Source: Hydrurus foetidus
Lineage: Eukaryota
Assembly (NCBI GenBank): GCA_900617105.1
Contig: UYFQ01000679.1
Span: 1-44,479, forward strand
Direction: 5' to 3'
Length of the DNA: 44,479 nt
A program made the translations under genes and the position numbers. The notes below the pieces were generated by a model. The model was not told the origin of the DNA and did no database searches. It worked only from the letters and a program-made list of their open reading frames with translations. Position 1 is the first letter of the stretch. Each line of letters starts with the position of its first letter. This document shows positions 10,114 to 44,479 of the stretch, piece after piece.

Positions 10114-11589
10114 ATGTTGTTGCTCTGCTTTTGCATCATACCTATTGTATTCTCCGCGGCAAGGGACATACCTATCGGGATTAATAGTGTCGACCAAACG
10201 TAAGTCGTCAAAATATTCTCTCTACCTCACTTCTTCAATAGTAGACTCATCGCGCGACCAATGAACATCTTCATAGGTCACAGGATGGCGAACAACCTGC
10301 GAAAAGCAATCATAAGTTGCGAGGCAGAAAAGGTGACGAATCGAAACCTTCAACATCACTCTTCTCTCCAACTACCGATGGTTCGGCAATTCAAAATTGG
10401 CAAAATTTAATAAATCGCAGAGGTGCAAGTGAGCAGCGAGGATTTGACACCAATAAGATTCATTGGTGCGGGATCATTTGGATGCACATTTAAGCCTTCC
10501 ATACCTTGCCTAACAGAGCGAGCAAATTTCTCTGGACCTGGTTATTTGAGCAAAGTAGTCAACATCGAGAAATATTCTAACGATGCTGAAGTTAGAATTG
10601 GAGAAATGATCACACGTATCCCAGATTTTGAGTCGTACTTCGCTCCAATACTGCAAGTATGCGTTATGGACTCGTCTTTCCTATTACCGGATGTGATAGA
10701 GCAGTGCTCAATGATGGCCGCCTCCACTGACCTCTCCATCTTCGTATCCAATTTGATGCGGTATGTTGGCACAGATTCTCTTAGGATGTATCTCTATGAA
10801 CAAACCACAAAAAGTGAAACACTCGGAATACAGGCTACTTTCAAAACGCACTATCACCTCTTACGAGCATTGACAAGTTTACAAACCCTCTCGAATCCAA
10901 TAGTGCATTTCGATCTAAAAGAGAACAATGTGCTTCTTGATGATACTACCGGTTCTCCTATCGTAATAGATTTTGGATTCTCTTTCACAAAAGAAAAGTT
11001 AATGCTGACAACACGGGATAAAAATGTGTTGAACGAATTGTTCTGGTCATACGATGGAGTGGCTAGTGGGCAAGCAAATGACTGGTGTCTTGAAGTGGAT
11101 CTGTTGAGCTACATTTCACAGATTCCTTTTAAACATCACAATGTTGAGTATAGTTCAATCATTGGTGGAACAGATATCCGTGAATTGGAAAATACCGTAG
11201 ACAGTTATATCACGAAAATGGAATTTACAAATTCTGGAATATTTCCTCCGGAAGAAGTGGAGACCTTTAGGGATGCACATAAGAAAAACTTGGGTCGATT
11301 CCTAAATTATACTTGGGGTCAATTAATAGAATACTTAATTTCTACGTGGAGTTCGTGGGACAATTTTTCTCTTTCATTGATTTACTGTACGTTTTTTGGA
11401 CGTAAACAAAGAGTGCATAATCGGTTAAATATCTTCGGTGACAGTGAATTAAATTGGATTGTCACACCGCAGACAAATCCGCTAATGTTGAAATATACGG
11501 ATATGATTACAAAAACCGTTTTGGCTCATCCAGGAAATATACAAGATCCGATTAAAACGATGAAAAATTTGGTCGCACTTTTGGTATGA
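10114..11589 (+). CDS. Protein kinase-like enzyme with N-terminal signal peptide; 3 exons (10114-10199, 10277-10332, 10421-11589)
   Basis: Kinase motifs GAGSFG, SKV lysine, alphaC Glu (AEVRIG), HFDLKENN, IDFG. The long ORF has no ATG start (GTG just after an in-frame TAA), but two phase-compatible GT-AG introns join it to MLLLCFCIIPIVFSAARDIPIG...NHKLRGRKEVQ. Confidence 0.8.
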
Positions 11590-12140: not shown

Positions 12141-15100
12141 TCATATTTTCGAAACTACGTATGCATACCAGTACGTAACAAAAAAATCTTGGAAATAACG
12201 ATGTACAAGATAGCACAGCAATGTCAAAAAAAATACGGCGAAAAATTTAGCTATAGTTGGTAGTGTTTCAAACCAGTTATTAACACCATCCCTGACTAGA
12301 TCAAAATGACCATCTTTTATGCCGTAGTAGAAAAAAGGAAGCCAAAATGTTAGCATTATCCTCTGAAACAAATACATTGCGTATGACGTATATCCCAGTG
12401 TTGTTATCGGCAAACTTTCTAAAAAAAATCGGGAATAATTGTATCGAGCTGAACCAGTCTGTAACATACTAACAAGAATTAAAATTAAAAATGCAAACGG
12501 TACAATAACAAACCATAACACAAATTTAATTTCTTCTTTATTTAAATCACCTAAAGTGCTCATTAGAAAGCCAATTCCTATCGCAGTAAAATCTGGAAAA
12601 AATCGCCAAATGTAGCAGCACAGAGTAAAAAAAGTGGAATCCCTTTGGGGGTGATTGTCCGTTTCATCTCCGGATAAGGAAGGACCCCTGGACCCGTTAC
12701 TGGAATTATCTAGGGACTCGGACATTTTTCTGGAGGTACCTCTTAGGGGTGAATATGTCGCTAAAATAGGGCTATTATGCTCGATATTTACCATTTCTGA
12801 TATTGATGCGGAGGGGTAGAAGTAGGAGAGAAGCCAATTACGATGTACCCACGGCCAAACAGGCTTAGTATCGGTGTGATTGTACACTCTATAGGCGAAG
12901 TCAATTACACCGATTGCCCTCAACCCCTCCATCTCCCCATCGTGACTCCTGCCCCAGTGCCAGAATGCGAAGTGTACGTTCTCTAGTACGCACGCGGCTA
13001 TTGCACCAGCAACGAAATAAGCGATAAACGTAAATGCGTTCTGTAAGGTGTAAAGTGAAATATTTTCAATATTTTCATTACTATTATTATTGGTGACTTT
13101 TCAATAAGACATGAGAAGTTGAGTACGTGAGAAGATATGTAGATGAGTGAGTAAACAATATGCGTGCAGTAAATTGAATTGTGTGTAATACAGAATGACA
13201 GAGATATTGATCTATTCTGCGATTCGTAATTTTTATGTCGACTGAAGAAAAAATTTTAGATTCATCGATAATGATGAAAACATAATGTGCTTGAGAACAC
13301 TAGAAATGGATGAAAATGAGAAAAATTTAACAGTTGTAGACAAGAAGGGGACATTGTTGATGTGAACATGTAGAGGTTAAAATGTGTGGTGACAAAAAGA
13401 AGAGAAACGGATGCGAATGAGAAAAAAATCATGAATCGAATATGAAGAAAAGAAAGAAAGAAAGAAAAAAGATCTCACCTTGGCAAATGTGTTGTATAAC
13501 ATAAACGTGAAGAGACCCAAAACAACCAAAATCCAAAAAGATACCATGACCAGCATAGTGCTCATATCAGTCCTATTATAGGCCAAAAGTACCGCTTTAT
13601 CCCCTACCCACTGTTTCCAAGTGCGACTTCTTCGTATTCTTCTAGGGGGTCTAAGAGTGAGCGGGGAAAGTTCTTCTGACGCATACGTCATTAAACGATT
13701 CTGCAACGTCATCAGAATCATTCTGCCGATACCGTATAAAATAAAGCAGTTAAGTATGATACTGGCGTAGAGGAGATTGTTCGGACCGTATAAGTGGCAG
13801 GTGGGACGATACCAAGACTGCATCCCTATCACGTACAGAACAGAGCACACAGCCTTCTGAGTGTTGTTTACTTTGTCGTCATTTACGTGCACATTGATCC
13901 AAGGAGGAATATTGAGCAGTAAAGCTACCCATAATATCGGATATAACCCGACACATCTCGAGACTATAAAAGATCGAATGTTAAATGATTTGCGGGGTAA
14001 AAGTTTTAGGCCGGCCGGACCGGTACCCCCCTTTACTGACACACTAAACCACTCCGCCCTCCCGACAGTCGGACTAGTTGAAGTGAACAACCCCTGAGAG
14101 TCTTCGGTGATTGAACTTTTTCTCACTCTGCCTATAACAGCCTCTCTTTCGTTTCTTTCGTTTCTGGGTGAGTCCATTGCACTGTTGTGATCATTGTGAC
14201 TGTGATTATTACTATTATTATTCTGGTTGTTGTGAGTGTTTTGTGTGTCATCGTTTAGTATGGGATTCAGTTGAATTTCACACACGTCATCCGGCTCAAC
14301 ATGTACGAATTGAGCAGTCTCTCTCAACTGTAAAGCTGTCGTAAACCCAGATATCATCACGAACAAGTACGTATCAGCGCTGAATGAAGATGATATCGCA
14401 TTGTGTGGGTTGTGAAAATGGTCATATAGAACTAAGAACGTAAAGATTCCTCTGACGCCTTCTATCAGCGCTCTATTAGTGGCGAGTAAATCTTCAAAGG
14501 AATTCTCTAATTTCTGCAAATCACCGGCCCCTTTAAACATCTCCCCTCCCTCTTCTTCCCCCTCCCCCATTACCTCGCAATCATAGGCTGTAGACTCATT
14601 TGTATTTGGTATTGAATTCTGATTCTCATTTTGATTTTCTATTTCACCGTATTTCCCTAGAAACGGTTTTGAAGATCCGCTTTCTAAGTCGAATTGAGAA
14701 TCTTGCGCATCTATTCTATCAGTGATACCTATTGAATGTGGAATGTTGACATTAATGTAAGATATATTAAGTCATATATTGAGGAGAATACTGTATTTGG
14801 AAGATGGAATACACTTACATAGATACATATATACTTACATACATACTTATCATGTTAGAACACACATAAATTCACACCCAAGCACACCCACACATGTATA
14901 TATAATCAATAATATACGCGCACATAATATACACATACATACATACACACACACAAATACATACATGCACATACCCAGATTTATCAAAGCCTCAGGTTTC
15001 TCTTTCTCTAAACGAATTAATAAGGACTCTGAAAAAGACCGGATAGTTACTCCCGGTGCATAGATTTTAGCCGGTTCTAGCCGTATTCCACCGAGAGAAT

Positions 15101-18100
15101 CAGATAGATATTTAATAAACATTACAGCCCCTAAAGAGTCCACACCAATTGAAGCGAAAGAGGAGTTAGTGGACGGCCTTCTTCCTCTCAACTCTTCTAT
15201 CATGTCACACACATGTCTCATCATTATCGTCACAGCTTTTGTATTTTTTAATTTACTTTTATTCATATTACGTACGGATCTTGGATCTGTAGATTCCGAA
15301 CTCTTCAAACGGACGTATCCTGGACCTTCTTCTACTTTTGTTTTTGATTGGGTATTAGGATAGGAAGATAAAGTTGTATGCTCATCCACATCGATTTTCA
15401 AGTGCATTCTTTCCCTTTCCTCCTCCTCCTCTTTTTCTCCTTCTTCCTCTTCTTCATTCAATACGTTGTTTCCATCTAGTACTTCACTATTTAAATCCGA
15501 AGTAGCATCTAATTCGCCCACACAGAGATCGCTTACGGTAGGATCCGGTAGAGCTTTACGGTCTAGTTTGCCGTTAGCCGTTTCAGGAAACACACTTATT
15601 TGCACAATGCTCCTACAAAAAGAATATTAGATGCAAATAAAATTTATGTTTGACGATCTGCTATTTGCGTTATTTTGAAATTGTCAAAATAGTGACTCAC
15701 TGCATCACGATACCGGATAATAATATTCGGCCAAATTTAACCGGATGAAGCATTAAAAATACCAAAACTGCTCACGGAGAATAATCATCAAAATAAGATA
15801 ATTGATGTAAAATATGATTTTCAGGAGCAACTTCAACTTCAAGTTGAAGCTGTACGTACTTGGGCATCATGTAGTACGTCAGTGATCTTCCCGCGTGGAT
15901 TTGGATTTCTTTTATTTGAGCTTTTGAAAGTGTAACACTTGTAACTCCTTTTATGTACAATGCTAACTTTCCGTCTTTGACAACAGCCACTTATATAAAC
16001 AATAAAAAGTGGAAAAATTAATGGTTGAAGAAAAGAGCTGTAAAAGTCTGATAGAGAAATTCAAAAATTGATATTCCGTTCGTAGATATTACATACATTG
16101 CATGTATAGAAAATCACTGCGATAAAATGCAATACATGGAGTGGGATGTGTCACGTATCCGCAGTCACTGTGGTGATGCTCAATATGAGGATGAGCTTTA
16201 GATAGATATCTGACGCACTGAAAGATACGTAATTGAAATCTCATCTTTCTTCACCTGTGCAGTACGTACTGTGGGTTGTGCGTATTAGTTATATATGATA
16301 AAACAGTGTATACTCTACAGAGAGCCGTGAAAAATAAAATATTACAAATGTAAATGAATATTTTAAGTACACGATTATAAGGTAGAAACGGTGTTTTTCT
16401 CCGCGACCAAATAAAAATTTCAATTTGGAAATAATAAATCATCTTTTCTGTCCCTAGAGTAAGTTACCTGTTTTTTCTACAAGATTATGAGAACTAAATA
16501 CGGTTTCTATTTCCGCTAATTCAATTCGAAAACCGTCAATTTTAACTTGGTCGTCCATTCTTCTCACGAAAATATATTTCCCTTGTCCTCCCTAGTCATC
16601 CAAATACACAGGGGCAAAGTGAACACTCAAATAGATGCGATGAAGGATGCAATAAGACTTCGTCAAATTTTGTGTGTGTCATAAATATGACTTTCACACT
16701 GCGCACTATGTGATGGAGGCCAAATGAACTAAACTAAACTAAACTAAACTAAACTAAATACATTCACAATTCAATAAAAGAAAATAAATCAGGAAACACA
16801 CATGGAGAAATTAATAATATTCAAAACCCCTTGACAATAATTTTGAAATTACTGGCACCTCTAATCTGGTAACAATATCTCCTGTGCGATAGACGGAACC
16901 TGGACCGAACGGATTCCTGAAGAATTTCTGACGAAATAAATCATATTCATAAATCGTAATATATCAGATAATAGGAGGAGAGACATTGCGTTTGAAGTGT
17001 GACTTCTCAAAAAGCGTTATAGACGATAAAATAGCAATGTTTCATTTGATGTAGTGAATGATTGACATATACAAAGCAATACAAAATAAAACAATAAAAT
17101 TATAATAATCTACTTTTCAGTGAATAGTGAAGAATTACAAAAAGTGAGATACGTACTTCTTTTGTGAGTTCAGGTGCATTTAGATAGCCTTTTGCCACTC
17201 CTACTCCTCCTATCCACAGTTCTCCTTCTTTATCAGGAGGCATTATTGTTTTTGGTAATATTTCGTCCTCAGATACGATGTAGAAAACCGTCTAAAATTA
17301 ATTAAATTAGAATTTAGTATTCTTCATATAGTTAGTTGTATGCATTATTTAAGTTTGTATTTTACATGAGTCATATAAATACATTGTACGTTACACATTC
17401 TCAAATATGTTTTGGCCTTATACCCTACTGCCCATTACATTGAAGACTTACAAAGCGCAACACTGAAACCAATAAAAGGAATATCCAACACATACTTTAT
17501 TTCATCACATCAATAACAATCGTAGTCATACAACAAAATATGAAATACTGCAAATCATAAACGATACCAGTAACAAAAAACATAATATAAAAGCAATCAC
17601 AATAAACAATAACATATAACACAGCAATACAAACGCACCTACCTCACTGATTGGCATTCCAATCGGTATGAGCGGTACTCCATTGCTGTATTGCAGTGTT
17701 GACACGTCTTTAGGAAGAGTGTAAGAACTCGACCAAATAGTGGTCTCAGTAGGACCATCTAGAATAAATCATAAATGTAATAAATCCGTTAAAAGGTGTG
17801 CTTTCATTTAAAATTTCCGTATTTTGTATTTGCATCTTTTACTCCACAATATAACATATCAAACTATTTGAAAACAGTTTCATTTTTCAACAACTCAAGC
17901 CAACAATCCCGTATACAATTAGTCCTTCATTATTCTGTACATGTCACGAAATGCCACTGATTATCTAATTTAATATAAACACATGTTTCACGTTTTTCTC
18001 TTTTCCCTGGATTCTTAAAAGTTGCACCATGTATTGCGCATTTAGTAAGAAAAAAATAAAAAATAAAAAGAATGCAAAGTAGTACTTACATACGTTACGA

Positions 18101-19689
18101 AGACTTCTGCTTGATTTTGCCAGTGGTAAAATACTAGCTCTGAACGCTTCGCCACCCACCTATAAAAGACGTACCGTAAAATGAAAATAATATAGGTGAA
18201 CAGTAATTTGCTTAAAAATAGTGAGCGAAAAATAAAGAAATATTGCGATATTGAAAATGAATGCAAAAGCTTTAATCCATTATGCAGCCAGACAATGAGT
18301 GTTTTAAAGATAAGAAATAGTTTGAAATTAGTCTGTGTAACATTTCGTCAATATAATGTATAGTGGAATAGAATACATAGAAAAAAAAGGAATTATTAGA
18401 AAAGAAAAAATGTATAATTGTGTTTTTATGATAAGAAAGGCAATGCTAAGATTACCAGAAAATCGATAGATGTGTCTCCCGTCCATCCCGTAGCGAAGAG
18501 CATCTATGTCGCGAAGAGCAGGATTACACGCATTGGATCAGCTTTTGTAAAATGCATATGTGCGTTCTTACTTTTATTATATACACGATTTTTTTGATGT
18601 CAACTCGTTATTTTTGCTATGAGAACCTCATTTATATTTAACAACTTCAACACACCTCAAAAGTAGTTGGTGTAGCTTGTATAACTGTGACTGCACAATC
18701 TCTGACAACATCAAGGAGATGAAAAGGGTCTTTCTGTGAACTCTGATTCACCATGACCAGAGATGCTCCGCGAAATAAAGGTAGAAACATCTCGAGAACA
18801 CTGTAAGTACAATGAAGTACGTATTAGGATTAGGATTCATTGTAATACAGTTAAGCACGTATTATGCAGTCATTGTAAGTAGAGGCATATCAATAGTTTG
18901 AGTTAGACTTACAGTACATTTGAGGAATAGAGTGCGAGTAATAGTTGATAAATGACAGCACTTTCTATACCTTATATCAAAACAGAATGTTGTCAGTCCA
19001 AGTACCCTGCTATTGCTGTCTAGATTAAGCTCGTCAGCGAACCAGTTTACAATATTCACTACTCCTGCCTGCTTGAGCATGACTCCTTTTGGTTTCCCAG
19101 TAGACCCCGAAGTGTAAAGAACGTAAGCAAGTCCGCCATCTTCTCGGTTAGAAACTTTTTCACGAGCGATAGACAAAATGGCAACTTTATTCAAATTGTT
19201 GAATGCAGGCAGGTGCAGAGTTCTCTTCACAATAGTACTAACTGTAATATCTGCATCTACCAGAGGTATGGCGGAATTTATAACGAGAGTGGGAGGCACT
19301 ATCACGCCAAGAGAGAGCGCGAGTTCAAGGCTCTCTTCGTCAGTTATCAACATTTTACATTTTGAGTGAGCAAAAATGTGAGTTTGCCTGTCCGGAGGGA
19401 ATGCTGGATCAACTGGTACATAAGCTGCTCCTGCCTTTAATATGCCTAGAATAGCCGACACGAGGCCGATTCCTCGTGTCATCATCACTGCTACAAGAGG
19501 CGTTTCAGAATCATCCTCGTTTATAGCAGCACTCTCCACGGCGCATGCTAACTCCTTGCCAATGCATGTTGCGATCTCGTCTACTTGCTGATAGCTGTAT
19601 GTCCTCCCATCTTCCAAACAGACACATGTTGATTGACCACTTTTGGCGACGGCACCTTCGAAGATATCGATTAGGCTTACCCCTTGCAT
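12141..19689 (-). CDS. NRPS-like protein: adenylation + peptidyl carrier + membrane acyltransferase-3 domain; 12 exons, ~1,450 aa
   Basis: Phase-consistent exons approx. 19689-18971, 18800-18656, 18503-18456, 18159-18090, 17758-17643, 17291-17157, 16927-16859, 16591-16468, 15989-15860, 15612-14975, 14728-13479, 13040-12141. A-domain cores: LKAGAAYVPVDP, YTSGSTGKPKG, FDISV, GGE, NVYGPTE, GELWIGGVGVAKGYL, YRTGD, RMDDQVKIDGFRIEL, YMMP, NGKLDR. Carrier motif GVDSL. AT3 motifs: IEGVRG(x)9H, FVMISGF, FIVSRCVGLYP, LGYTSYAMYLFQ, with many TM-like segments. Confidence 0.9.
16727..16758. repeat. (AAACT)n pentanucleotide microsatellite (intronic)
   Basis: About 6 tandem aacta units. Confidence 0.85.
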
Positions 19690-23112: not shown

Positions 23113-24030
23113 TGAAAAAGAAAACTGGGAACAGTATTGAATATTGAAATATGCATCTAAAAATCTTGAAAAGCAGTTTTTGTCATGGTTTCGTCAATTG
23201 CCAACACACCATTCTGACCCGACAATTTCTTTTCATCGATTATTCTAATAGGGAAATCAAATTGTTTACCGATCGGAGAATGGAGATTCAGATTTGGCTC
23301 AAATTTTATCACTGTTATCAAACTGTGATAATAGATTAATAAACGCGGCATTTACGATGGATGACCCGGCTAAAGAACACAGAATATTTCACTCTGGTGT
23401 GATTCTCCGAAAAGACAAATGAAGTCACTGCATATCCATATCCATACCGGATAAGAATGATTAAAACCATTTATCTAGCATTCGGTTTGATAAGATGAGC
23501 GACTTCTTGCGATCCATTTACCGTTCTGTACTACATACTATTTACAGTAACGTAGAGACCGGTTTATTTATAATCATCTGTTCATTTATTTAAAATAAAA
23601 TCATCAGAGGCAGTCCGGCTAGATCCATAGTAAATTTTTCTCAATTATACCGATCACTCTGGAATAGATTGCCTGCCCAACTATTTGAGATTTTTTAGAA
23701 TATTTTAGGTATACTGCCAAATAGCTGAATAAACTTTCAGCATTTTTCTGAATATATTTCAGATCGAGTGATGATAATCAGCCCCCCACACCTTTAAAAA
23801 AAAGTAGCAAAATCCACACCATCAGCATCATGGCTTGGGGCAATTGATTTATCATCAGTTCATCTAATTTTTTCGGAGAAAAGTGGGCACTTTATTCTAC
23901 TACAGTACATGATAATAATTAGTGCTAGTATGGAATTCACTTTTTTCAAACCACCGGTGAAGATCGTTTCGTGTCATAAAAGTCACCCGATTATGACGAT
24001 TATGAACAAACCGGTCTCCACGTTACTGTA

Positions 24031-24816
24031 CCAGTGCCGGTAATAACGCGGTTTCGGTAAAAATGCGGTTATTCGACCCGGCAGCCGGCAGGTCCGATAT
24101 CTCTCCAAACTCTTCATGAAAAAGTTTTTGTCAAATATTCTGAGAGGTAATTCGATAGTTTTACATCCGTTTCGATTATTAAAATTTTCTAAAATTGATG
24201 ATTTCATCACGAGATCGACATTAGTCACTTTTGGCGACTCATCAATGTCGGATATAGATGAAGCAAGAGTATGAGTTAGGTATTCTATCTTGTAGGCAGC
24301 AGCCATATTAGTATGGATCCGCGAGGATTTCGTACAAATCACGATAGTCACTGAGATGCATCAGTTTCAGAGACCAAAAATGTGCCTTTTTAACGTATTC
24401 GGGATGCGGTTTCCCAATATTTCAACGAAAAAGGCACATTTTTGGTCTCTGAAACTGATGCATCTCAGTGACTATCGTGATTTGTACGAAATCCTCGCGG
24501 ATCCGATTTGTACGAAATCCTCGCGGATCCATACTAATATGGCTGCTGCCTACAAGATAGAATACCTAACTCATACTCTTGCTTCATCTATATCCGACAT
24601 TGATGAGTCGCCAAAAGTGACTAATGTCGATCTCGTGATGAAATCATCAATTTTAGAAAATTTTAATAATCGAAACGGATGTAAAACTATCGAATTACCT
24701 CTCAGAATATTTGACAAAAACTTTTTCATGAAGAGTTTGGAGAGATATCGGACCTGCCGGCTGCCGGGTCGAATAACCGCATTTTTACCGAAACCGCGTT
24801 ATATTACCGGCACTGG
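24031..24816. mobile_element. Foldback/MITE-like long palindrome
   Basis: Arms 24031-24391 and 24428-24816 are near-perfect reverse complements around a 36-bp spacer. Ends are CCAGTG...CACTGG, flanked on both sides by TGTA (24027-24030, 24817-24820). Confidence 0.7.
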
Positions 24817-25085
24817 TGTACGGTATGGCGGGGTACGGTGAACGGTGATACCGTTCAGTAAGGACAAAAATTGGCGATGAAAAGCTTTCACGGTTTTACA
24901 CAGAGGTGATATCCAAACTCTCTCTCTCTCACCCTCCCTCCTCTACACACACAGCACCTGTGGCACGGCGCGCGCTGCATCTTCTGAAGAACGCATTGTC
25001 CTTCCAGCGGCGAACAAATTTCATTTCAAAGTTGCGCTGAAAAAAATACTGATTTAAAAGAAATCAGCGTTTTCAAAAGGTTTGA

Positions 25086-34941: not shown

Positions 34942-35306
34942 TGTCGGAATAACTAATGAGCTAAGTAACCGTATAAGTTATTACGTATGTACATTTGATG
35001 ACGTTTCGTACGTCGTGTGCTGTGTGGTGGTCGCTACTCCACCGGTCCAGGTTCCTTTAACCCAGGAACATCAAAATGATGAAAGTGCACCATGTTTGAC
35101 TGTGCGGGACAGCGCGATCTTTTCGCCTGTCTCCATGAACGATGTAAGCGATGTTGCATCGTTAGTTACCTTAATACTCACACCAGCAGAGCTTTCGCCT
35201 TGAGCCCGGGAAAGTTGCTAGCGCACGTGTTGAACCTGCAGAAGGAGCGCGTACCCAGGAAGGATATAGTCTTCCATTCAGTGGAAACTGATCCTTAGTT
35301 ACGACA
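34942..35306 (+). repeat. 5' LTR (365 bp)
   Basis: Direct repeat of 40936-41299 with TG...CA ends. Confidence 0.97.
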
Positions 35307-35343
35307 TAATTAACGAGTTGCTTTCGTTGCAACCAGTTGCAAC

Positions 35344-36453
35344 ATGAAAGGCAGAGGCCGAGGCCGAGAACACAATACCGCAGGCGGTCGAGCAAACCCT
35401 GCCAACGGTGGCAGAGGGAATGCTGGCCGCGGTGCGAAGCCTCCACCAAGAACAGGAACGGTAGCCGCGATTGGCGCATTCCTGGATCTTGGAAGAGAGA
35501 TGAACCATGGTAGCGTAAGCGCATGGATGAGGAAGTTCCGCGAGTACACTCGCGCGAACTACAAGTCCGATATCTCTGAGATATTCGGCAACGAGGGCAT
35601 ACCGGGTGATTACCCGCAATATGTCGCTCCAGCGGACATAGCAGCCGATGCGAACTTTATGGTATCAACAAAATGGAAGCGAGCATTGGAGCTATACGAC
35701 AGAAACGTCCTTACTCTGAGAGAGGACCGAAAGCAAGTCTTCGGACTAATGCTAGGTCAAATTAGCGAAGCGTCGAAAGCGACAATTCGAGAAGCTGAAA
35801 CCGGACTTGCAGCGATGACTGCAGAGGACCCGCTGCTACTGTTGAGAGCCATCATATTGACTCACCTATCGGATCCGAGGCTGGGAGCAGATCAGAACCT
35901 GCTGAGAGTCCGAATGGCGTATGAGACAGTCAAAATGGAGCAGAACGATGTGCTAAAGTACTACTATCAACGCTTTAAAGCGTTGAAATCTGGATACGAG
36001 GACACGATGCGGGCGTTAGGAGTCATGCCCGAGTTCAACGAGGCCATGACCGCCCACAACGAAGTACTCACTGGGATGAAATTTATGAACGGATTGAACT
36101 CCGGATACCGTCATTACGTGGAGTACTACGAGCACAGGCTCAAAGACTGGCCAGACACCCTCGAGGACGCGTACCTCGAGATGGCCAAGGTCACCCCGAA
36201 GAAGTCAGCAGCAGCAACACCACCCAACCAGACCAATGTTTTCGCTACGAAAACGGCTGGCGGTGAGAAACCAGCTGGGACAGAGAAAGGGAAAGCTAAT
36301 GGGAACGGGGGCAGAGGGAAGGGTGGGCGTACGTCGTACGGCACCCGTCCCGGCAACTGTAATAAATGCGGTGAACTTGGGCACTACTCATACGAGTGTA
36401 CAGCGGAAAGCCAAGCGGGTGCACCAGCACCCAGTGGAAAATCGGTAAACTAA
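35344..36453 (+). CDS. gag: Copia Gag with CCHC zinc knuckle
   Basis: 369-aa ORF with RGG-rich N-terminus and CNKCGELGHYSYEC knuckle. Confidence 0.92.
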   Translation: MKGRGRGREHNTAGGRANPANGGRGNAGRGAKPPPRTGTVAAIGAFLDLGREMNHGSVSAWMRKFREYTRANYKSDISEIFGNEGIPGDYPQYVAPADIAADANFMVSTKWKRALELYDRNVLTLREDRKQVFGLMLGQISEASKATIREAETGLAAMTAEDPLLLLRAIILTHLSDPRLGADQNLLRVRMAYETVKMEQNDVLKYYYQRFKALKSGYEDTMRALGVMPEFNEAMTAHNEVLTGMKFMNGLNSGYRHYVEYYEHRLKDWPDTLEDAYLEMAKVTPKKSAAATPPNQTNVFATKTAGGEKPAGTEKGKANGNGGRGKGGRTSYGTRPGNCNKCGELGHYSYECTAESQAGAPAPSGKSVN

Positions 36454-36636
36454 GTAAGATACATTATTCTCCACCCGTACACTCACCCACACCTACACCT
36501 GTACATACACCCGCACTTACATTTACACACACACCCATACACACCGATCCTCCATGTTTGGCTGATTCCACTAGCGGAATTGAAACATGTGATCATATTG
36601 TTTTTAGTGCCAATACATGCAATATATATAACATGA

Positions 36637-39600
36637 TTAGAAGTAGACACATGTGCTGGTGAGTCGGTTTTCAACGACTCATCCCTGCTGTATAATGTCG
36701 AACACGCACCCACACCTATGATTGTTAGCGGGGTGAATCCGAAAGGAAAACCGCTGATAATCAAGAAACGTGGGGTGTCGGCGTTCGGCAACGTGTATTA
36801 TAGCCCTGACTGTGCTGGTAATATATTGTCTTTTGGTAATGCTGTACGTGACTGTACTGATGTTAAGTACTTACATGACTATGATTGTTACATAGTGCAA
36901 GACGTCAGTGGAAAATATTTTTATAGATTCTCACGAGATGAGACTATGAATATATACCAATGTAATCTTGACACTATGGTAACAGAATGCATGCCAATGT
37001 TAGTTACGACAGTAGAGCAGAATAAGAAGAAGTATACAGTAAGAGAAGTCAGAGACGCGTCGTTAGCTAGAGACTATCAGCGTAGACTAGGATACGCTAG
37101 CGCAGCACAGACTATTAAGTTGATATCCCAAGGGAATTTGACTAATAGCAAAGTGACTGCGCGAGACGTACATAGAGCCATTGATATATGGGGACCGGAC
37201 GTGGGATCCCTTAAGGGGAAGACCACCAGTCACCAGGCCAAGTTAGAAGAGAAGCTACCACTGATAGGTATTGAGTACAAGACAGAACAGATTATGTATG
37301 TAGATATAATGTTTGTCAACCAAGTACCATATCTAGTATCAGTAGTGCAGCCCATCGAGTTCCTATACGTTAGCAAGTTAGCTAACCGAGAGCACAAGAG
37401 CATATGGAACAGCCTAAAGACTTCATTAGCAAGCATGGTAAAGTACAGATTCAGAGTTAAGATGATCCGAGTAGACGGCGAGGGTGCAATCAATACAGAA
37501 TGGTTTCACAACAAAGTCGGCTTAAGAGGTATAGTACTAGACGTTACCGGAGCCGGAGAAGCCGTAGCCGTAGTCGAGCGTAAGATACGACACATAAAGG
37601 AGAGAGTAAGATCAGTAGTCAATTCTCTACCGTTCTCATTGAATGAGAAATTAGAAGTGTGGTTAGTTAAGTATGCAGTCAGTAGAATTGTATTAGCACC
37701 CACACGTAACTCACTTAATCACATCAGTCCACGAGAGAAATTAACTGGAAGAAAGTTAGACGTAGATAAGGAGATTAAACATGGTTTTGGTGATTATGTC
37801 CAAGTGCATAATGATGTCATTGATAACTCTACCAAACCAAGAACAGCCGGGGCCATAGCACTTATGAGCTCCGGTAATCTAGAAGGTTCATGGTACTACA
37901 TGCTGTTAGCTAACGAACGTATTGTTAAACGTACTAAAGCGACTGTACTACCTATGCCTGATGAAGTGATATTACACTTGAATGTATTAGCTTCAAAGAG
38001 AAAAACTGCCAATGTTAAACAGCCTGTATTTGAGAATAGTAGTCACATTGTATTCGATGATGATGACGATGTTGAAGATGATAGTGCTTACATTGGTGAT
38101 GTTGAATATGAAACTGTCGATGAAAATGCTAACGCAGATTACACCGATGAGATTATTGAAGATAACGATCACAATGATAACGAAACACATCTTGAATCAC
38201 AACTCGATATGTCTGATGAAAATCACCCACCCACATTAGATGAGTATGTAGATGACACACTATATGTGAGTGACACTACATACGACAATGACGAACTATA
38301 TTATGATGACACACATGATGACACACATGTACCCCAACCTAAATATGATCAAGCACTGATAGATGACATATTTGGCATAAGTGATGATGAAGATGACTTT
38401 GCTGATGTAACTGTACACACTGAAGTATTCACACCACCTGCCACCATAATTGAAACCGCATATGACCCACCCGTTGTAAACTCACCCGTGTTACGTAGAA
38501 GTGGTAGAAATCACCAACTTGGTAAATGGGATAAGAAATATGTTGGTAATCTGTTCTACAACCACACTCACCTGTACAAAATGACTGTTAATGAGGGAAT
38601 TAATAAGTTAGGGGTGATAGCTGTTGATTCCATTACATCTGAATTGAAACAAATGTGTGATAAGAATGTTTGGGAAGGTGTAACTTACGAATCCCTCACC
38701 CCACAACAAAAACGCACCATTATACCTAGTAGCATGTTCTTGAAAGAAAAGTATACTGCTGATGGTATGTTTGAAAAACTGAAATCTAGACTAGTAGCCG
38801 GTGGGCACTTACAAGATAGAGATGTTTATAACAATGGCGCCTCACCTACTGCTAGCACATCTAGTGTATTCATGCTGACTGCAATTGCTGCTAGACAGAA
38901 GCGTGCTGTCGCCACTGTTGACTTTCCCGGTGCATTCCTGAATAGTGATATGCCGCTGACCGGCGACCATGTTGTATACATGCGTCTGAATAAACAACTG
39001 ACTGCTGCACTAATTAAGATTGATGCAACATATAACAAATACATGAATAACAATGGAACATGTATTGTTAAACTTAAGAAAGCTTTATATGGATGCGTTG
39101 AATCTGCTAAACTATGGTATGATAAACTATCCAGTGATTTGATCAAATTCAATTATACTGCTAATGAATATGACATATGCGTATTCAACCGAACTGAATC
39201 GGATAACACACAAACATCACTCGTAATTCATGTTGATGATATGATAATCACTGCTTCAAATGAATCTCGCGTTGATGATGTTATAAAACAAATTGAAACT
39301 ATATATCCCGGTCTAACGAAACATAGAGGAAAAGTTTTAAATTACATAGGCATGACTTTCGACTTCAGCAAGGAAGGCTGCGTTAAGATGACTATGGAGG
39401 GCTTCGTGCAAGACCTCATTGAGGGGTGTAAGGATATGCCGGGCACGGCAAACACACCTGCACGAGCCAATCTATTCACTATACCTGATGAATCTGACTC
39501 ACCCTTACCTGATAATCTGCGTGAGCGTTTTCACTCTATTACAGCGAAGCTACTCTACCTGAGTAAGAGGACGAGGCCAGACATTCTGACTGCCGTAGCG

Positions 39601-40301
39601 TTCCTGACAAAGAGAGTGCTGAGGCCCCAAAGGGACGACTACGACAAGCTGACCCGTACGATACAGTACATACGGGGTAGTCAGCATACGGGTATAACAT
39701 TTGAAGTATATGAACCTATTCATGTTATTGCATATATCGATGCATCCTTTGCCATACATCCCGATATGAAAAGTCACACAGGCAGCGTAATCACCCTTGG
39801 GAAGGGAGCGATCTACGCCAAGAGCGGTACTCAGCGCCTGATGACAAAGTCCAGCACGGAGGCCGAGCTAGTCGCACTCAGCGACGCTGCCAACCAAGTT
39901 CTGTGGACCAGGAACTTCCTGGAGTGCCAGGGACACCCTCAACCTCCCGCCTTAGTGTATCAAGACAATCAGTCTACGATACAGCTCATACGTAACGGTC
40001 GCTCGAACAGCGAACGTACGCGGCACGTTGATATACGGTATTTTTCCTGCACGACAGAATCAGTACAGGCGATGTAGACATTGTGTACCTACCTACTACT
40101 GACATGATTGCAGACATTCTAACCAAGCCACTGCAGGGTGAATTGTTCAAGAAGCTCAGGAAGGAGCTGCTCAACACTTCACCACCTACCCTCACGTACG
40201 CAGATGGATGCAAGACTGAGGACCGTACGGACTCCGCGCCGACACCCGTACGCACCAAATTCAACCCACGATTTCCATACCCTACGTCCAAGAAGAACTA
40301 A
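36637..40301 (+). CDS. pol: Copia Pol (protease, integrase, reverse transcriptase, RNase H) with apparent 1-bp frameshifts
   Basis: Protease VDTCAGES (upstream of the listed ATG). Integrase DDE: YVDIMF, RVDGEG, VVERKIR. RT: KSRLVAGG, DFPGAFLN, KALYG, HVDD. RNase H: YIDAS, STEAEL, QDNQ, and ADILTKPL in a shifted frame after about 40045. Confidence 0.92.
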
Positions 40302-40380
40302 TACCTACCGACGAAGAATCCATCCGACATGCTACCCCCCTCCATCTTACCCTTCTACAACGCCGCTGTCCGCTTCAGCT

Positions 40381-40517
40381 GAAGACTGAACACTCAAGAC
40401 CCCAAGACTCCGTCATTCCTACTGCCCCCACATCCGACTCTACTACCCCATCAGCGCGCGTCATGACGAAGACTGACCACTCAAGACACCAAGACTCCAT
40501 CATTCCTGCTACCCCCC
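40381..40517 (+). repeat. Imperfect ~50-bp direct repeat in the Copia 3' untranslated region
   Basis: gaagactga(a/c)cactcaagac(c/a)ccaagactcc(g/a)tcattcct at about 40381 and about 40468. Confidence 0.75.
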
Positions 40518-40935
40518 TCCATCATTTTCTTCTACCCCATCAAGTGCGACTCAAGAAAACCCTGACAGAGACATAAAGAGCGAGGACCGTGGAGACCCGA
40601 CCCAGACCCAAGACCCGATTCCGGAATCAGATAGTATAACAAGTCAGAAAATTATTTTAAGTGTAATCTTTTGCGTGTTACATAAAGTCTTTTTAGAATT
40701 GTTTAACTCTATGCTCATTCGGATCAGTCAGACCTTATGATACTAATATTACCCTGCATGCAATAAATTATCTAACGTCACAATTAAGGTCAACCCCACC
40801 ATTACCCTACTTCCCTACAATATAAAATCATGTTATGATACACCATTTGTGAAGCTTCAAGTAAACGGAGCATTTTTGAATTCTATTGCGTTTTCATTCG
40901 CGTACACCAACCCGACGACTCACGCCATAGGGGTG

Positions 40936-41299
40936 TGTCGGAATAACTAATGAGCTAAGTAACCGTATAAGTTATTACGTATGTACATTTGATGACGTTT
41001 CGTACGTCGTGTGCTGTGTGGTGGTCGCTACTCCACCGGTCCAGGTTCCTTTAACCCAGGAACATCAAAATGATGAAAGTGCACCATGTTTGACTGTGCG
41101 GGACAGCGCGATCTTTTCGCCTGTCTCCATGAACGATGTAAGCGATGTTGCATCGTTAATTACCTTAATACTCACACCAGCAGAGCTTTCGCCTTGAGCC
41201 CGGGAAAGTTGCTAGCGCACGTGTTGAACCTGCAGAAGGAGCGCGTACCCAGGAAGGATATAGTTTCCATTCAGTGGAAACTGATCCTTAGTTACGACA
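40936..41299 (+). repeat. 3' LTR (364 bp)
   Basis: Differs from the 5' LTR by one substitution and one 1-bp indel, as read by eye. Confidence 0.97.
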
Positions 41300-42706: not shown

Positions 42707-44479
42707 CTAATATACATCTATATCGACCCATGAAATATTCCATTCTCGCATGTAAAAGGGAAACATAGGAAGTTCATCGTGTTGGAATCGGTCCATGTGT
42801 TTGACATCCCCATAGTAAGTGGAGTAGTCGTGATATCCCAGATATCCTCTCATTCTCGTAATATACCCTGAAAAAGTGGAAAACCAAGTACCGACGAAAA
42901 TGTGTCCTCTCGTGCATACGATTTGGTCGATCATTCCTAGGTAATTAGGGTTAATATCTCTCAGTCCAGCGATGTCCATATAATCATCCAAATATCGAAC
43001 CACTGGAAATCTGTCATGAAAAGCATCGAAGAAAGACTTGTTTCTTTCATCGGTCGCGACAAACACTAATTCGTTCCTGGGAATGTGATGTCCGACATTC
43101 GTCATCATTTCTGCAGCAGAAATCTTAACCGCTTTGTACTGGAAGTCCCCCCTAAATTGATTGAATAAACAGGACATTAGCGTTGACATATTTTAGAAGT
43201 AATCGAATGTTAGATCAATGTATGAAAGAGATATCATTTTCGACAACGCATATCCAGCATTGAGTGGCATATATTGCCACATCATTCGAATCATGCAAAA
43301 GCTCTGAGAGAACAGAGAACAGATTCTAGTCTGCTGTAATCGCACATACATCAGTCTATGACATTCAGCTATCTGTGTACATACGCACCTTCTTATGTGA
43401 AACGCAGAATATTCCCCCTTTCCCTCTTCTTTCAATTTGTTGATAATAATTGCTGCTTTGCAAAATATAGTATCCGTATAGTGCACGAAATCTCTTACAA
43501 ATCGTTTGTAGTATCTGTCCATAAAGGGGTCTTGAAAATGTATGAATGTGTAGAAATGTTCGAGTAATCGGAAGCCAGTTAGAGGATTTGATTCAAAATG
43601 AACAACTTTTTGTGCCTGCCAACTTTCATTGTAGTAATGAGGTGTTCTTGATGCTGCAAATGTTTTGAGCCGTTCCGCATATTTATCAGCATCAGGCCTG
43701 AGAGAAACATCAACACCCGGAGCGACAGGAATAATGATGAATTCTTTCATGCATTTCCATGTTGGACAAGCGCTCACATGGCGTAAGTATCTCCACATAG
43801 CTCTCCTATCATCCCTCAGTGTTCCGATAAACTCCGTCTGATTGTTAGGAGGATAAGATACTTCGTTGTTTGAGATGTTTTTTAGTCTTCCAGTAACGGC
43901 TTCCCTTTCCATGAATTCTGTCATTGTGATGACAGGTACTCTTTTATTGATCAATTCAAACGGAAAAAAATCTGCAAAGGAATGTGCGGTCTGGTGTCCC
44001 TTTCCAGCATTCAGAAGATACATTGGCTGATCAGGAGGAAGCACTAATGTTCTGGAGGTGGCCGCAGCAAAAACAACTACAGTCTCCATCTGCATCCTAA
44101 TGTTATTCCACCCTCCCACATCTGGATGATGAATCATTTGAAAAAATAATGTAGATGAAGATTTGTGTCTATCTGAAATTATGATCTCGACTGTTATTTT
44201 GAGCAGGTTCAAATATTATAAATCACAAATGGATCACTGAAGATACCTGGCTCGAATGTGACGTATCTAGTGTCAGCTCCTTCAATGTAATAAGGAGATA
44301 CATAAGCCAAGTCTTCTGCTGTAGCTGGCTTCCAAAACTGTATCAAGTCAGCGTGAGGGCATAGCAGCTCGTGATGGACCACTGATGGTGCTGCTATCAC
44401 CTCAGTTGGAGGTTCAGTCTCTGGTCCTTTCACAACAACTTCGATAGAAGGAATTTCTCTAATAGGTCGTGCTAACTGT
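42707..44479 (-). CDS. GDP-fucose protein O-fucosyltransferase family (POFUT2/O-FucT-like); 5' end outside window
   Basis: Spliced motifs YVTFEP-DVGGWNNIRM, RTLVLPP, AFHIRR-GDFQY, FVATDE, IDQIVC, FVGTWFSTFSGYITRMRG. Exons approx. 44479-44248, 44122-43389, 43152-42707. Confidence 0.9.

What the first reader, a model, noticed from the sequence alone, without database searches (positions are those of the whole stretch)
12141..19689. Single-protein A-T-acyltransferase-3 machine: candidate eukaryotic Dlt/Alm-like aminoacylation system
Seen: scattered ORF fragments splice in phase over 12 exons into one protein with a complete adenylation domain, a phosphopantetheine carrier (GVDSL) and a multi-pass membrane AT3 (OafA/Acyl_transf_3-like) domain. 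There is no C, TE or R domain. Established: AT3 proteins transfer acyl groups from cytoplasmic thioester donors to extracytoplasmic glycans. DltA/C/B and AlmE/F/G use separate A, carrier and transferase proteins (not AT3) to aminoacylate bacterial surface polymers. Inference: this protein activates an amino acid and passes it across a membrane onto an algal wall, scale or mucilage glycan, or a lipid. I know of no characterised eukaryotic example.
Basis: partly seen in the sequence, partly recalled or inferred. Interest (0 to 1): 0.92.

Follow-up and report, generated by a model that had tools for sequence, protein, structure and literature searches.

The report
Algal glycine-loading membrane acyltransferase fusion
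A spliced, transcribed gene, likely from a golden alga, joins in one protein an enzyme predicted to activate glycine, a carrier arm and a ten-helix membrane acyltransferase-type domain, and so would likely attach glycine to a sugar or glycolipid across a membrane, a job known from multi-protein bacterial envelope systems.

Summary
It holds an adenylation (A) domain, a carrier (Ser678) and a divergent AT3/TmAT domain. Pfam misses the AT3 part here, but profile, language-model and structure comparisons (HGSNAT, GWT1) place it. It belongs to a family of about 220 clusters; its named members are chrysophytes. The A-domain code DILQLGVIWK (18 of 22) predicts glycine, so Alm is a closer parallel than Dlt. 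The second Arg of the RxxR motif, modelled on CoA's 3'-phosphate in OafB, is Gly in 102 of 103, fitting a carrier-tethered donor; the catalytic-site His stays (100 of 101). The acceptor is not identified. This scan noted A-T-AT3 fusions before, in bacteria; the one checked here has an unrelated A domain, so it likely arose separately. No characterised example turned up in six literature searches.

The parts
12141..19689 (-). Whole gene, 12 exons, 1447-aa A-T-AT3 protein
15540..19689 (-). Adenylation domain, residues 1-543 (exons 1-10); specificity code DILQLGVIWK, predicted glycine; catalytic Lys534
   Evidence: Pfam; TIGR01733 over cut-off in full-length relatives P0002 and P0155; code
14994..15236 (-). 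Carrier (T) domain, about residues 645-725
   Evidence: PP-binding 24.2 bits over cut-off 20.8
15135..15137 (-). Ser678 of GVDSL, predicted phosphopantetheine site
   Evidence: sequence; G.DS. motif in 65 stored proteins
14729..14974 (-). Intron 10, joins carrier exon to membrane exon
   Evidence: X5 contig record 10
12162..14474 (-). AT3/TmAT membrane domain, about residues 817-1441, ten helices, N-terminus cytosolic (predicted), two long low-complexity cytosolic loops
14418..14453 (-). TMH1 R824-x10-H835 motif
   Evidence: R 91 of 92, H 100 of 101
13947..13958 (-). TMH3 motif R989-x-x-G992 in place of RxxR
   Evidence: R/K 104 of 104, G 102 of 103; bacterial AT3 control R/K 21 of 22
13041..13478 (-). 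Intron 11, within the membrane domain after TMH5
   Evidence: X5 contig record 9
12372..12386 (-). TMH9 S1367-x3-Y1371 motif
   Evidence: S 85 of 89, Y 78 of 83

Best explanation
This transcribed gene encodes one protein with an adenylation domain, a carrier domain and an AT3/TmAT-fold membrane domain that is predicted to activate glycine, would hold it as a thioester on Ser678, and likely passes it through the membrane pore onto a glycan or glycolipid on the luminal or outer side. Shown: gene structure, domain content, fold and motif conservation. Predicted: glycine, from the pocket code. Inferred: a separate phosphopantetheinyl transferase arms the carrier; the pantetheine arm enters the channel that acyl-CoA uses in other TmAT proteins; His835 at the far end of TMH1 helps transfer to a hydroxyl or amine; with no SGNH partner domain the membrane domain does the transfer alone. 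A free glycyl amine would add positive charge to an anionic surface molecule, as in Alm and Dlt. The A domain appears to descend once from a bacterial peptide-synthetase glycine module.
For: One transcript frame. Of 154 family proteins, 99 hit TMH1-2; 60 of those have more than 130 residues upstream and 59 of the 60 carry the carrier; 11 carry all parts in one chain, 9 of them from the A-domain start. Code DILQLGVIWK in 18 of 22, DILQLG in 22 of 22; DILQLGMIWK is reported for glycine-activating domains (PMC12283262); the best-scoring solved stretches include LgrA, DhbF 5U89 and AB3403, all linked to glycine in PMC10510592. AT3 fold: HHalign 98.3% over TMH1-10 to 22 bacterial AT3; 30 of 30 Atlas hits PF01757, score 0.95; model of relative P0026 (pLDDT 83.5) matches HGSNAT Z 11.9 and 11.1 and GWT1 Z 9.7, next 5.6; P0032 and P0160 pass the PF01757 cut-off. 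Five of the six TmAT positions of PMC12423673 are conserved and the TMH1 Asp is mostly Glu. Of four basic residues modelled on CoA's 3'-phosphate in OafB (R14, R74, K279, R338; PMC9833829), the R74 site is Gly in 102 of 103, and by motif offset the K279 site is basic in 16 of 88 and the R338 site in 0 of 76, against 21, 15 and 22 of 22 in bacterial AT3. Basic loops after TMH2, 4 and 6 put A-T in the cytosol, and a conserved Cys pair (89 of 94, 85 of 86) lies in the predicted luminal loop. The 28 family A domains form one branch (SH-aLRT 100) among bacterial NRPS A domains (quick tree).
Against: No biochemistry. No acceptor is indicated: neighbours are not a cluster (kinase, retroelement, O-fucosyltransferase 23 kb away). 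PF01757 is missed in the window's exons, and passes in only 1 of 28 relatives and 0 of 7. Foldseek found nothing at E<=0.001 for either model; Z 10-12 with rmsd 5.5-6.7 is within the range the tool warns about for helical bundles, though it stands clear of rank 4. Both models are of relatives, not of this protein. Characterised AT3 proteins use acyl-CoA, not carriers, and InterPro classes them as transferring non-aminoacyl groups (PMC9558356). R14 and the first RxxR Arg are kept. The K279 and R338 mappings rest on motif offsets, not on an OafB alignment. Code positions were placed by recalled motif offsets. Some AT3 proteins acylate small natural products (PMC12423673).
Confidence: 0.65

Rival explanations
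1. Same chemistry, but the AT3 domain is a release step that puts glycine on a small metabolite or simple lipid rather than on a surface or secretory glycan.
For: Streptomyces and fungal AT3 proteins act in natural-product pathways (PMC12423673). The A domain is of NRPS type. Standalone AT3 genes lie near glycine-code NRPS genes in 2 of 75 bacterial loci (L008, L042).
Against: No pathway cluster around the gene; wide retention with paralogues (L003 and L004 in one assembly; an expressed paralogue in this organism) suits a housekeeping modification, but this is weak.
Confidence: 0.2
2. The AT3 domain still takes acyl-CoA and acylates the carrier-bound glycine, making an N-acyl-glycine.
For: All characterised AT3 donors are acyl-CoA; R824 and R989 are kept.
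Against: Three of four predicted CoA-phosphate contacts are lost; donor and acceptor would both come from the cytosolic face; no release domain is present.
Confidence: 0.06
3. The carried unit is not glycine but another small amino acid such as alanine or sarcosine.
For: Codes are only predictive; PMC12283262 notes overlap between Ala, Ser and Gly signatures.
Against: Nine of ten positions match a reported glycine code and the code is near-invariant; nearest bacterial A domains mostly share DILQLG (55 of 124 hits, including 1 family member).
Confidence: 0.06
4. The membrane domain is catalytically dead and serves as an anchor or channel.
For: RxxR is broken and Pfam scores are low.
Against: His 100 of 101, FxxxxG 103-104 of 104, TMH6 Gly 58 of 61 and SxxxY are held across about 30% identity.
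Confidence: 0.03

Closest known systems
AlmEFG glycine modification of lipid A (Vibrio cholerae; PMC4278540 passages)
   Same: Glycine adenylation, phosphopantetheine carrier, then a membrane-associated transferase onto an envelope glycolipid.
   Different: Three separate proteins; AlmG has a lysophospholipid acyltransferase domain (PMC3783018), not AT3. Here one chain, TmAT fold, eukaryote, acceptor unknown.
Dlt D-alanylation of teichoic acids (PMC3783018 passages)
   Same: A enzyme, carrier, multi-pass membrane acyltransferase; transfer across the membrane.
   Different: DltB is MBOAT, structurally distinct from TmAT (PMC12423673); needs DltD and DltX; D-Ala. DltA models score far below cut-off on relatives (about 200-235 against 476-560 bits).
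AT3 (PF01757) and TmAT superfamily: OafB, OatA, HGSNAT, GWT1
   Same: Ten-helix fold, R-x10-H, FxxxxG, TMH3 Arg, TMH6 Gly, SxxxY.
   Different: RxxG instead of RxxR; fused A and T; predicted aminoacyl-carrier donor instead of acyl-CoA; no SGNH domain.
Uncharacterised bacterial A-T-AT3 fusions (L103:4485-7037, 851 aa; Atlas cluster of 147, Actinomycetota)
   Same: Same domain order (Pfam).
   Different: A domain is acyl-CoA-ligase-like and far outside the family in the tree (long branch, placement unsure); its AT3 part is not recognised by the family profile. Likely a separate fusion.
Poly-epsilon-lysine synthetase type (A-T-membrane) enzymes (PMC10510592 passage)
   Same: Single-module A-T fused to a membrane part.
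   Different: Those use condensation-like domains to make homopolymers; none is found here.

Membership tests
AT3 / PF01757 | Pfam score over the curated cut-off (31 bits) | tested here: inconclusive
   No hit on window exons 11 and 12 scanned apart; the joined protein was not scanned. Relatives: 0 of 7 (one at 16.9 bits), 1 of 28 (40.4), 1 of 9 (38.8, same cluster).
AT3 / PF01757 | R-x10-H in TMH1 | tested here: met
   R824 91 of 92, H835 100 of 101
AT3 / PF01757 | RxxR in TMH3 | tested here: not met
   First Arg kept (99 R, 5 K of 104); second is Gly in 102 of 103, never Arg
AT3 / PF01757 | Acyl-CoA donor, non-aminoacyl group | not testable with these tools
   Sequence argues against
TmAT superfamily | Ten-helix TmAT fold | tested here: met
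   On relative P0026: HGSNAT Z 11.9 (rmsd 5.5, 285 aligned), 11.1, GWT1 9.7, next 5.6 of 48161 chains; HHalign 98.3%; nine hydrophobic segments plus the broken TMH9. Foldseek blank.
TmAT superfamily | Six conserved positions (TMH1 Asp and Arg, TMH2 Phe and Gly, TMH3 Arg, TMH6 Gly, TMH9 Tyr as listed in PMC12423673) | tested here: met
   E/D 76 of 91, R 91 of 92, F 103 of 104, G 104 of 104, R/K 104 of 104, G 58 of 61, Y 78 of 83
NRPS amino-acid adenylation domain | TIGR01733 over cut-off, Asp235 and Lys517 equivalents | tested here: met
   P0002 339.7 and P0155 351.7 over 317.4; P0030 279.7 below; D238 and K534 present
Canonical NRPS module | Condensation, thioesterase or reductase domain | tested here: not met
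   None in Pfam scans of full-length relatives
Dlt system | DltA equivalog and MBOAT transferase | tested here: not met
   DltA models below cut-off; membrane part is TmAT
Alm system | Glycine activation and carrier | tested here: inconclusive
   Predicted from code only
Alm system | LPLAT-type transferase acting on lipid A | tested here: not met
   No such domain in scans; eukaryotic host

The most novel reading that the evidence does not exclude
Chrysophytes carry a eukaryotic counterpart of Alm/Dlt envelope aminoacylation: a single-chain enzyme, built from a captured bacterial NRPS glycine module and an AT3 pore rewired from CoA to a protein carrier, that glycylates surface or secretory glycans or glycolipids and tunes their charge. 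It would be a TmAT protein that transfers an amino acid and uses a carrier donor, neither of which the papers read here describe.
Probability: 0.45. Interest if true: 0.88.

Novelty: new variant of a known kind. Interest (0 to 1): 0.74.

Why it matters
It would extend the TmAT superfamily from acyl-CoA to carrier-borne amino acids, and show the bacterial activate-carry-transfer logic for envelope aminoacylation in a eukaryote. It predicts a glycine modification in a major group of freshwater bacterivorous algae, and gives a single-polypeptide system for asking how a donor threads the AT3 pore: the RxxR to RxxG change is a directly testable switch.

Tried and rejected
No genome is held for the window, so the phosphopantetheinyl transferase and paralogue count were not checked. 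Pattern scans for the membrane domain found no relative in viral contigs (19 candidates) or prokaryote species genomes (66 candidates); tblastn of plasmids was blank; these are insensitive. The family profile over 401 Pseudomonadota and 5 other genomes gave 22 weak matches; 21 were scanned (L093 left out, wrong frame picked): 18 PF01757 over cut-off, 1 below, 2 fragments with no hit, none fused to A-T. None of 75 bacterial loci with similar A domains had a fused AT3. The two top Atlas clusters for full-length P0160 (about 930 aa, Pseudomonadota, score 0.98) list only A and T families, so their C-terminal part is unresolved: they may be A-T-TE or a bacterial amino-acid A-T-AT3. Foldseek was blank twice; the VIA search was run only on the second model. 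Carrier-to-membrane-domain complex prediction gave no verdict (score 0.01, alignment not used). Alignment A3 misplaced exon 12 and was not used. The third word-index search returned only the query. The careful tree did not finish; the quick tree is quoted and test_one_clade was not run. Runs X1 and X2 are small-share holders and are not used for habitat. A search for algal glycyl glycans returned nothing relevant in the listing.

Full report
Gene structure. The minus strand between 19689 and 12141 gives 12 GT-AG exons and a 1447-residue protein without internal stops. Stranded oligo-dT reads from run X7 show 8 of the 11 introns (7 with 7-20 reads, intron 1 with 2 reads and an X1 contig), including the unusual AAG acceptor at 15989. 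The library kind of X5 is not on record, and its two contigs overlap by only 17 bases, so no single molecule spans the gene. Intron 5 was not seen. In relative L004 one 937-residue stop-free frame holds A, T and TMH1-5. Listed strain differences are 48 synonymous of 60.

Family. Exon 11 found 7 longer proteins, and a full search with P0012 found 220 clusters at E<=0.001, of which 150 were listed. Of 154 proteins then held, 99 hit TMH1-2, 60 had over 130 residues upstream, and 59 of those carried the carrier; 11 carried all parts. Of 30 clusters looked up, two had organism names, Chlorochromonas (Ochromonas) danica and Epipyxis sp., and none listed an NCBI or UniRef source; P0012 is also from Ochromonas danica. 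The range is therefore only partly known; chrysophyte for the window is an inference. Paralogues occur (L003 and L004; loose ends at 15859 and 15897 in DNA and RNA). The 13 full-length relatives inspected start directly with the A domain (by eye).

A and T domains. Pfam finds AMP-binding and PP-binding in the window; 2 of 3 full-length relatives pass the amino-acid adenylation model TIGR01733 and none passes DltA. The ten-residue pocket code, placed by recalled motif offsets, is DILQLGVIWK in 18 of 22 sequences and starts DILQLG in all 22. PMC12283262 (passages; its tables were not visible) reports DILQLGMIWK for glycine-activating domains. Top solved relatives include LgrA, DhbF 5U89 and AB3403, tied to glycine in PMC10510592 (passages). 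In a quick tree of 88 A domains the 28 family rows form one branch (SH-aLRT 100) among bacterial NRPS domains of 33-38% identity; no donor is resolved and the bacterial sample came from one capped pattern scan.

Membrane domain. Pfam misses it in this copy and in most relatives, but P0032 and P0160 pass PF01757 and exon 11 aligns to P0032 (E 1e-20). All 30 Atlas hits for the P0032 domain are PF01757 clusters. The family profile aligns to 22 bacterial AT3 proteins over TMH1-10 at 98.3%, and its weak hits in bacterial genomes are AT3 genes (19 of 21 scanned). AlphaFold models of two relatives are confident (pLDDT 80.9 and 83.5). Foldseek found nothing, but a full structural search ranked HGSNAT (Z 11.9, 11.1) and GWT1 (9.7) above all else (next 5.6); PMC12423673 (parts 1-4 of 7 read) gives Z 13.2 for OafB against HGSNAT.

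Motifs. On 159 sequences aligned to the family profile (near-duplicates included), R-x10-H, FxxxxG, the TMH3 Arg, TMH6 Gly and SxxxY are conserved, while the second Arg of RxxR is Gly in 102 of 103. PMC9833829 (passages) models R14, R74, K279 and R338 of OafB on the 3'-phosphate of CoA. The R74 site is this Gly; by motif offset the K279 site is basic in 16 of 88 and the R338 site in 0 of 76, against 21, 15 and 22 of 22 in the bacterial set (the last two mappings are inferred). A carrier-bound pantetheine lacks that phosphate, so the losses fit a carrier donor. Basic residues cluster in the loops after TMH2, 4 and 6, placing A-T in the cytosol and His835 and a conserved Cys pair on the far side.

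Mechanism. Most likely: glycine is adenylated, loaded on Ser678, threaded into the pore and transferred to a luminal or external hydroxyl or amine. The acceptor is open. The neighbourhood is not a pathway cluster. From recall, C. danica is a naked cell, so a wall or scale cannot be the universal acceptor; a glycolipid, glycoprotein or mucilage is more plausible. A chitinous lorica is reported for one chrysophyte (PMC2109911, abstract only), so an amino-sugar acceptor is possible.

Comparison and novelty. It works like AlmEFG (PMC4278540, passages) and Dlt (PMC3783018, passages; that paper swaps the AlmE and AlmF roles) but belongs to neither. It is a TmAT-fold protein and a divergent AT3 that fails the RxxR feature. 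PMC9558356 (passages) states that AT3 donors are acyl-CoA rather than carrier proteins. Searches showed no description of an A-T-AT3 protein in their listings; subscription papers are not covered and no supplements were read, so fusion tables in AT3 reviews may list the architecture. Earlier notes of this scan report bacterial A-T-AT3 fusions; I confirmed one (L103) and an Atlas cluster. Its A domain is of a different type and its AT3 part is not recognised by the family profile, which points to separate origins.

Verdict. Observation confirmed, interpretation supported and sharpened to glycine. New variant of a known kind; interest 0.74; best mechanism 0.65.

Noticed in passing
window 10414-11589 (+): Intron-less protein kinase frame (Pkinase 31.5 bits) with 9 relatives at 25-28% identity in giant-virus metagenome contigs; possibly virus-derived.
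   Followed up: partly
window 34942-41299: Copia-type retroelement: 365-bp terminal repeats 99.5% identical, zinc knuckle and RVT_2 frames; looks recent.
   Followed up: partly
window 24030-24817: About 790-bp inverted duplication, 90% identical; frames 23983-24360 (-) and 24296-24841 (+) share a peptide, no Pfam hit on the latter.
   Followed up: no
window 15859-15897: Reads and contigs from an expressed paralogue with the same intron position match only this 39-bp stretch.
   Followed up: no
window 42707-44215 (-): O-fucosyltransferase family gene pieces.
   Followed up: no
L004:12746-14710 (-): Glycosyltransferase 61 family gene about 1 kb from the A-T-AT3 relative (29.2 bits); not seen beside the window's gene.
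   Followed up: no
L008:1542-10100: Acidocella locus with a standalone AT3 gene, a phosphopantetheinyl-transferase-like frame (by eye), and a glycine-code A-T-TE gene.
   Followed up: partly
Atlas result: A 1430-aa cluster with AMP-binding, Acyl_transf_3 (85%) and FSH1 hydrolase (85%), a further A-AT3 layout.
   Followed up: no
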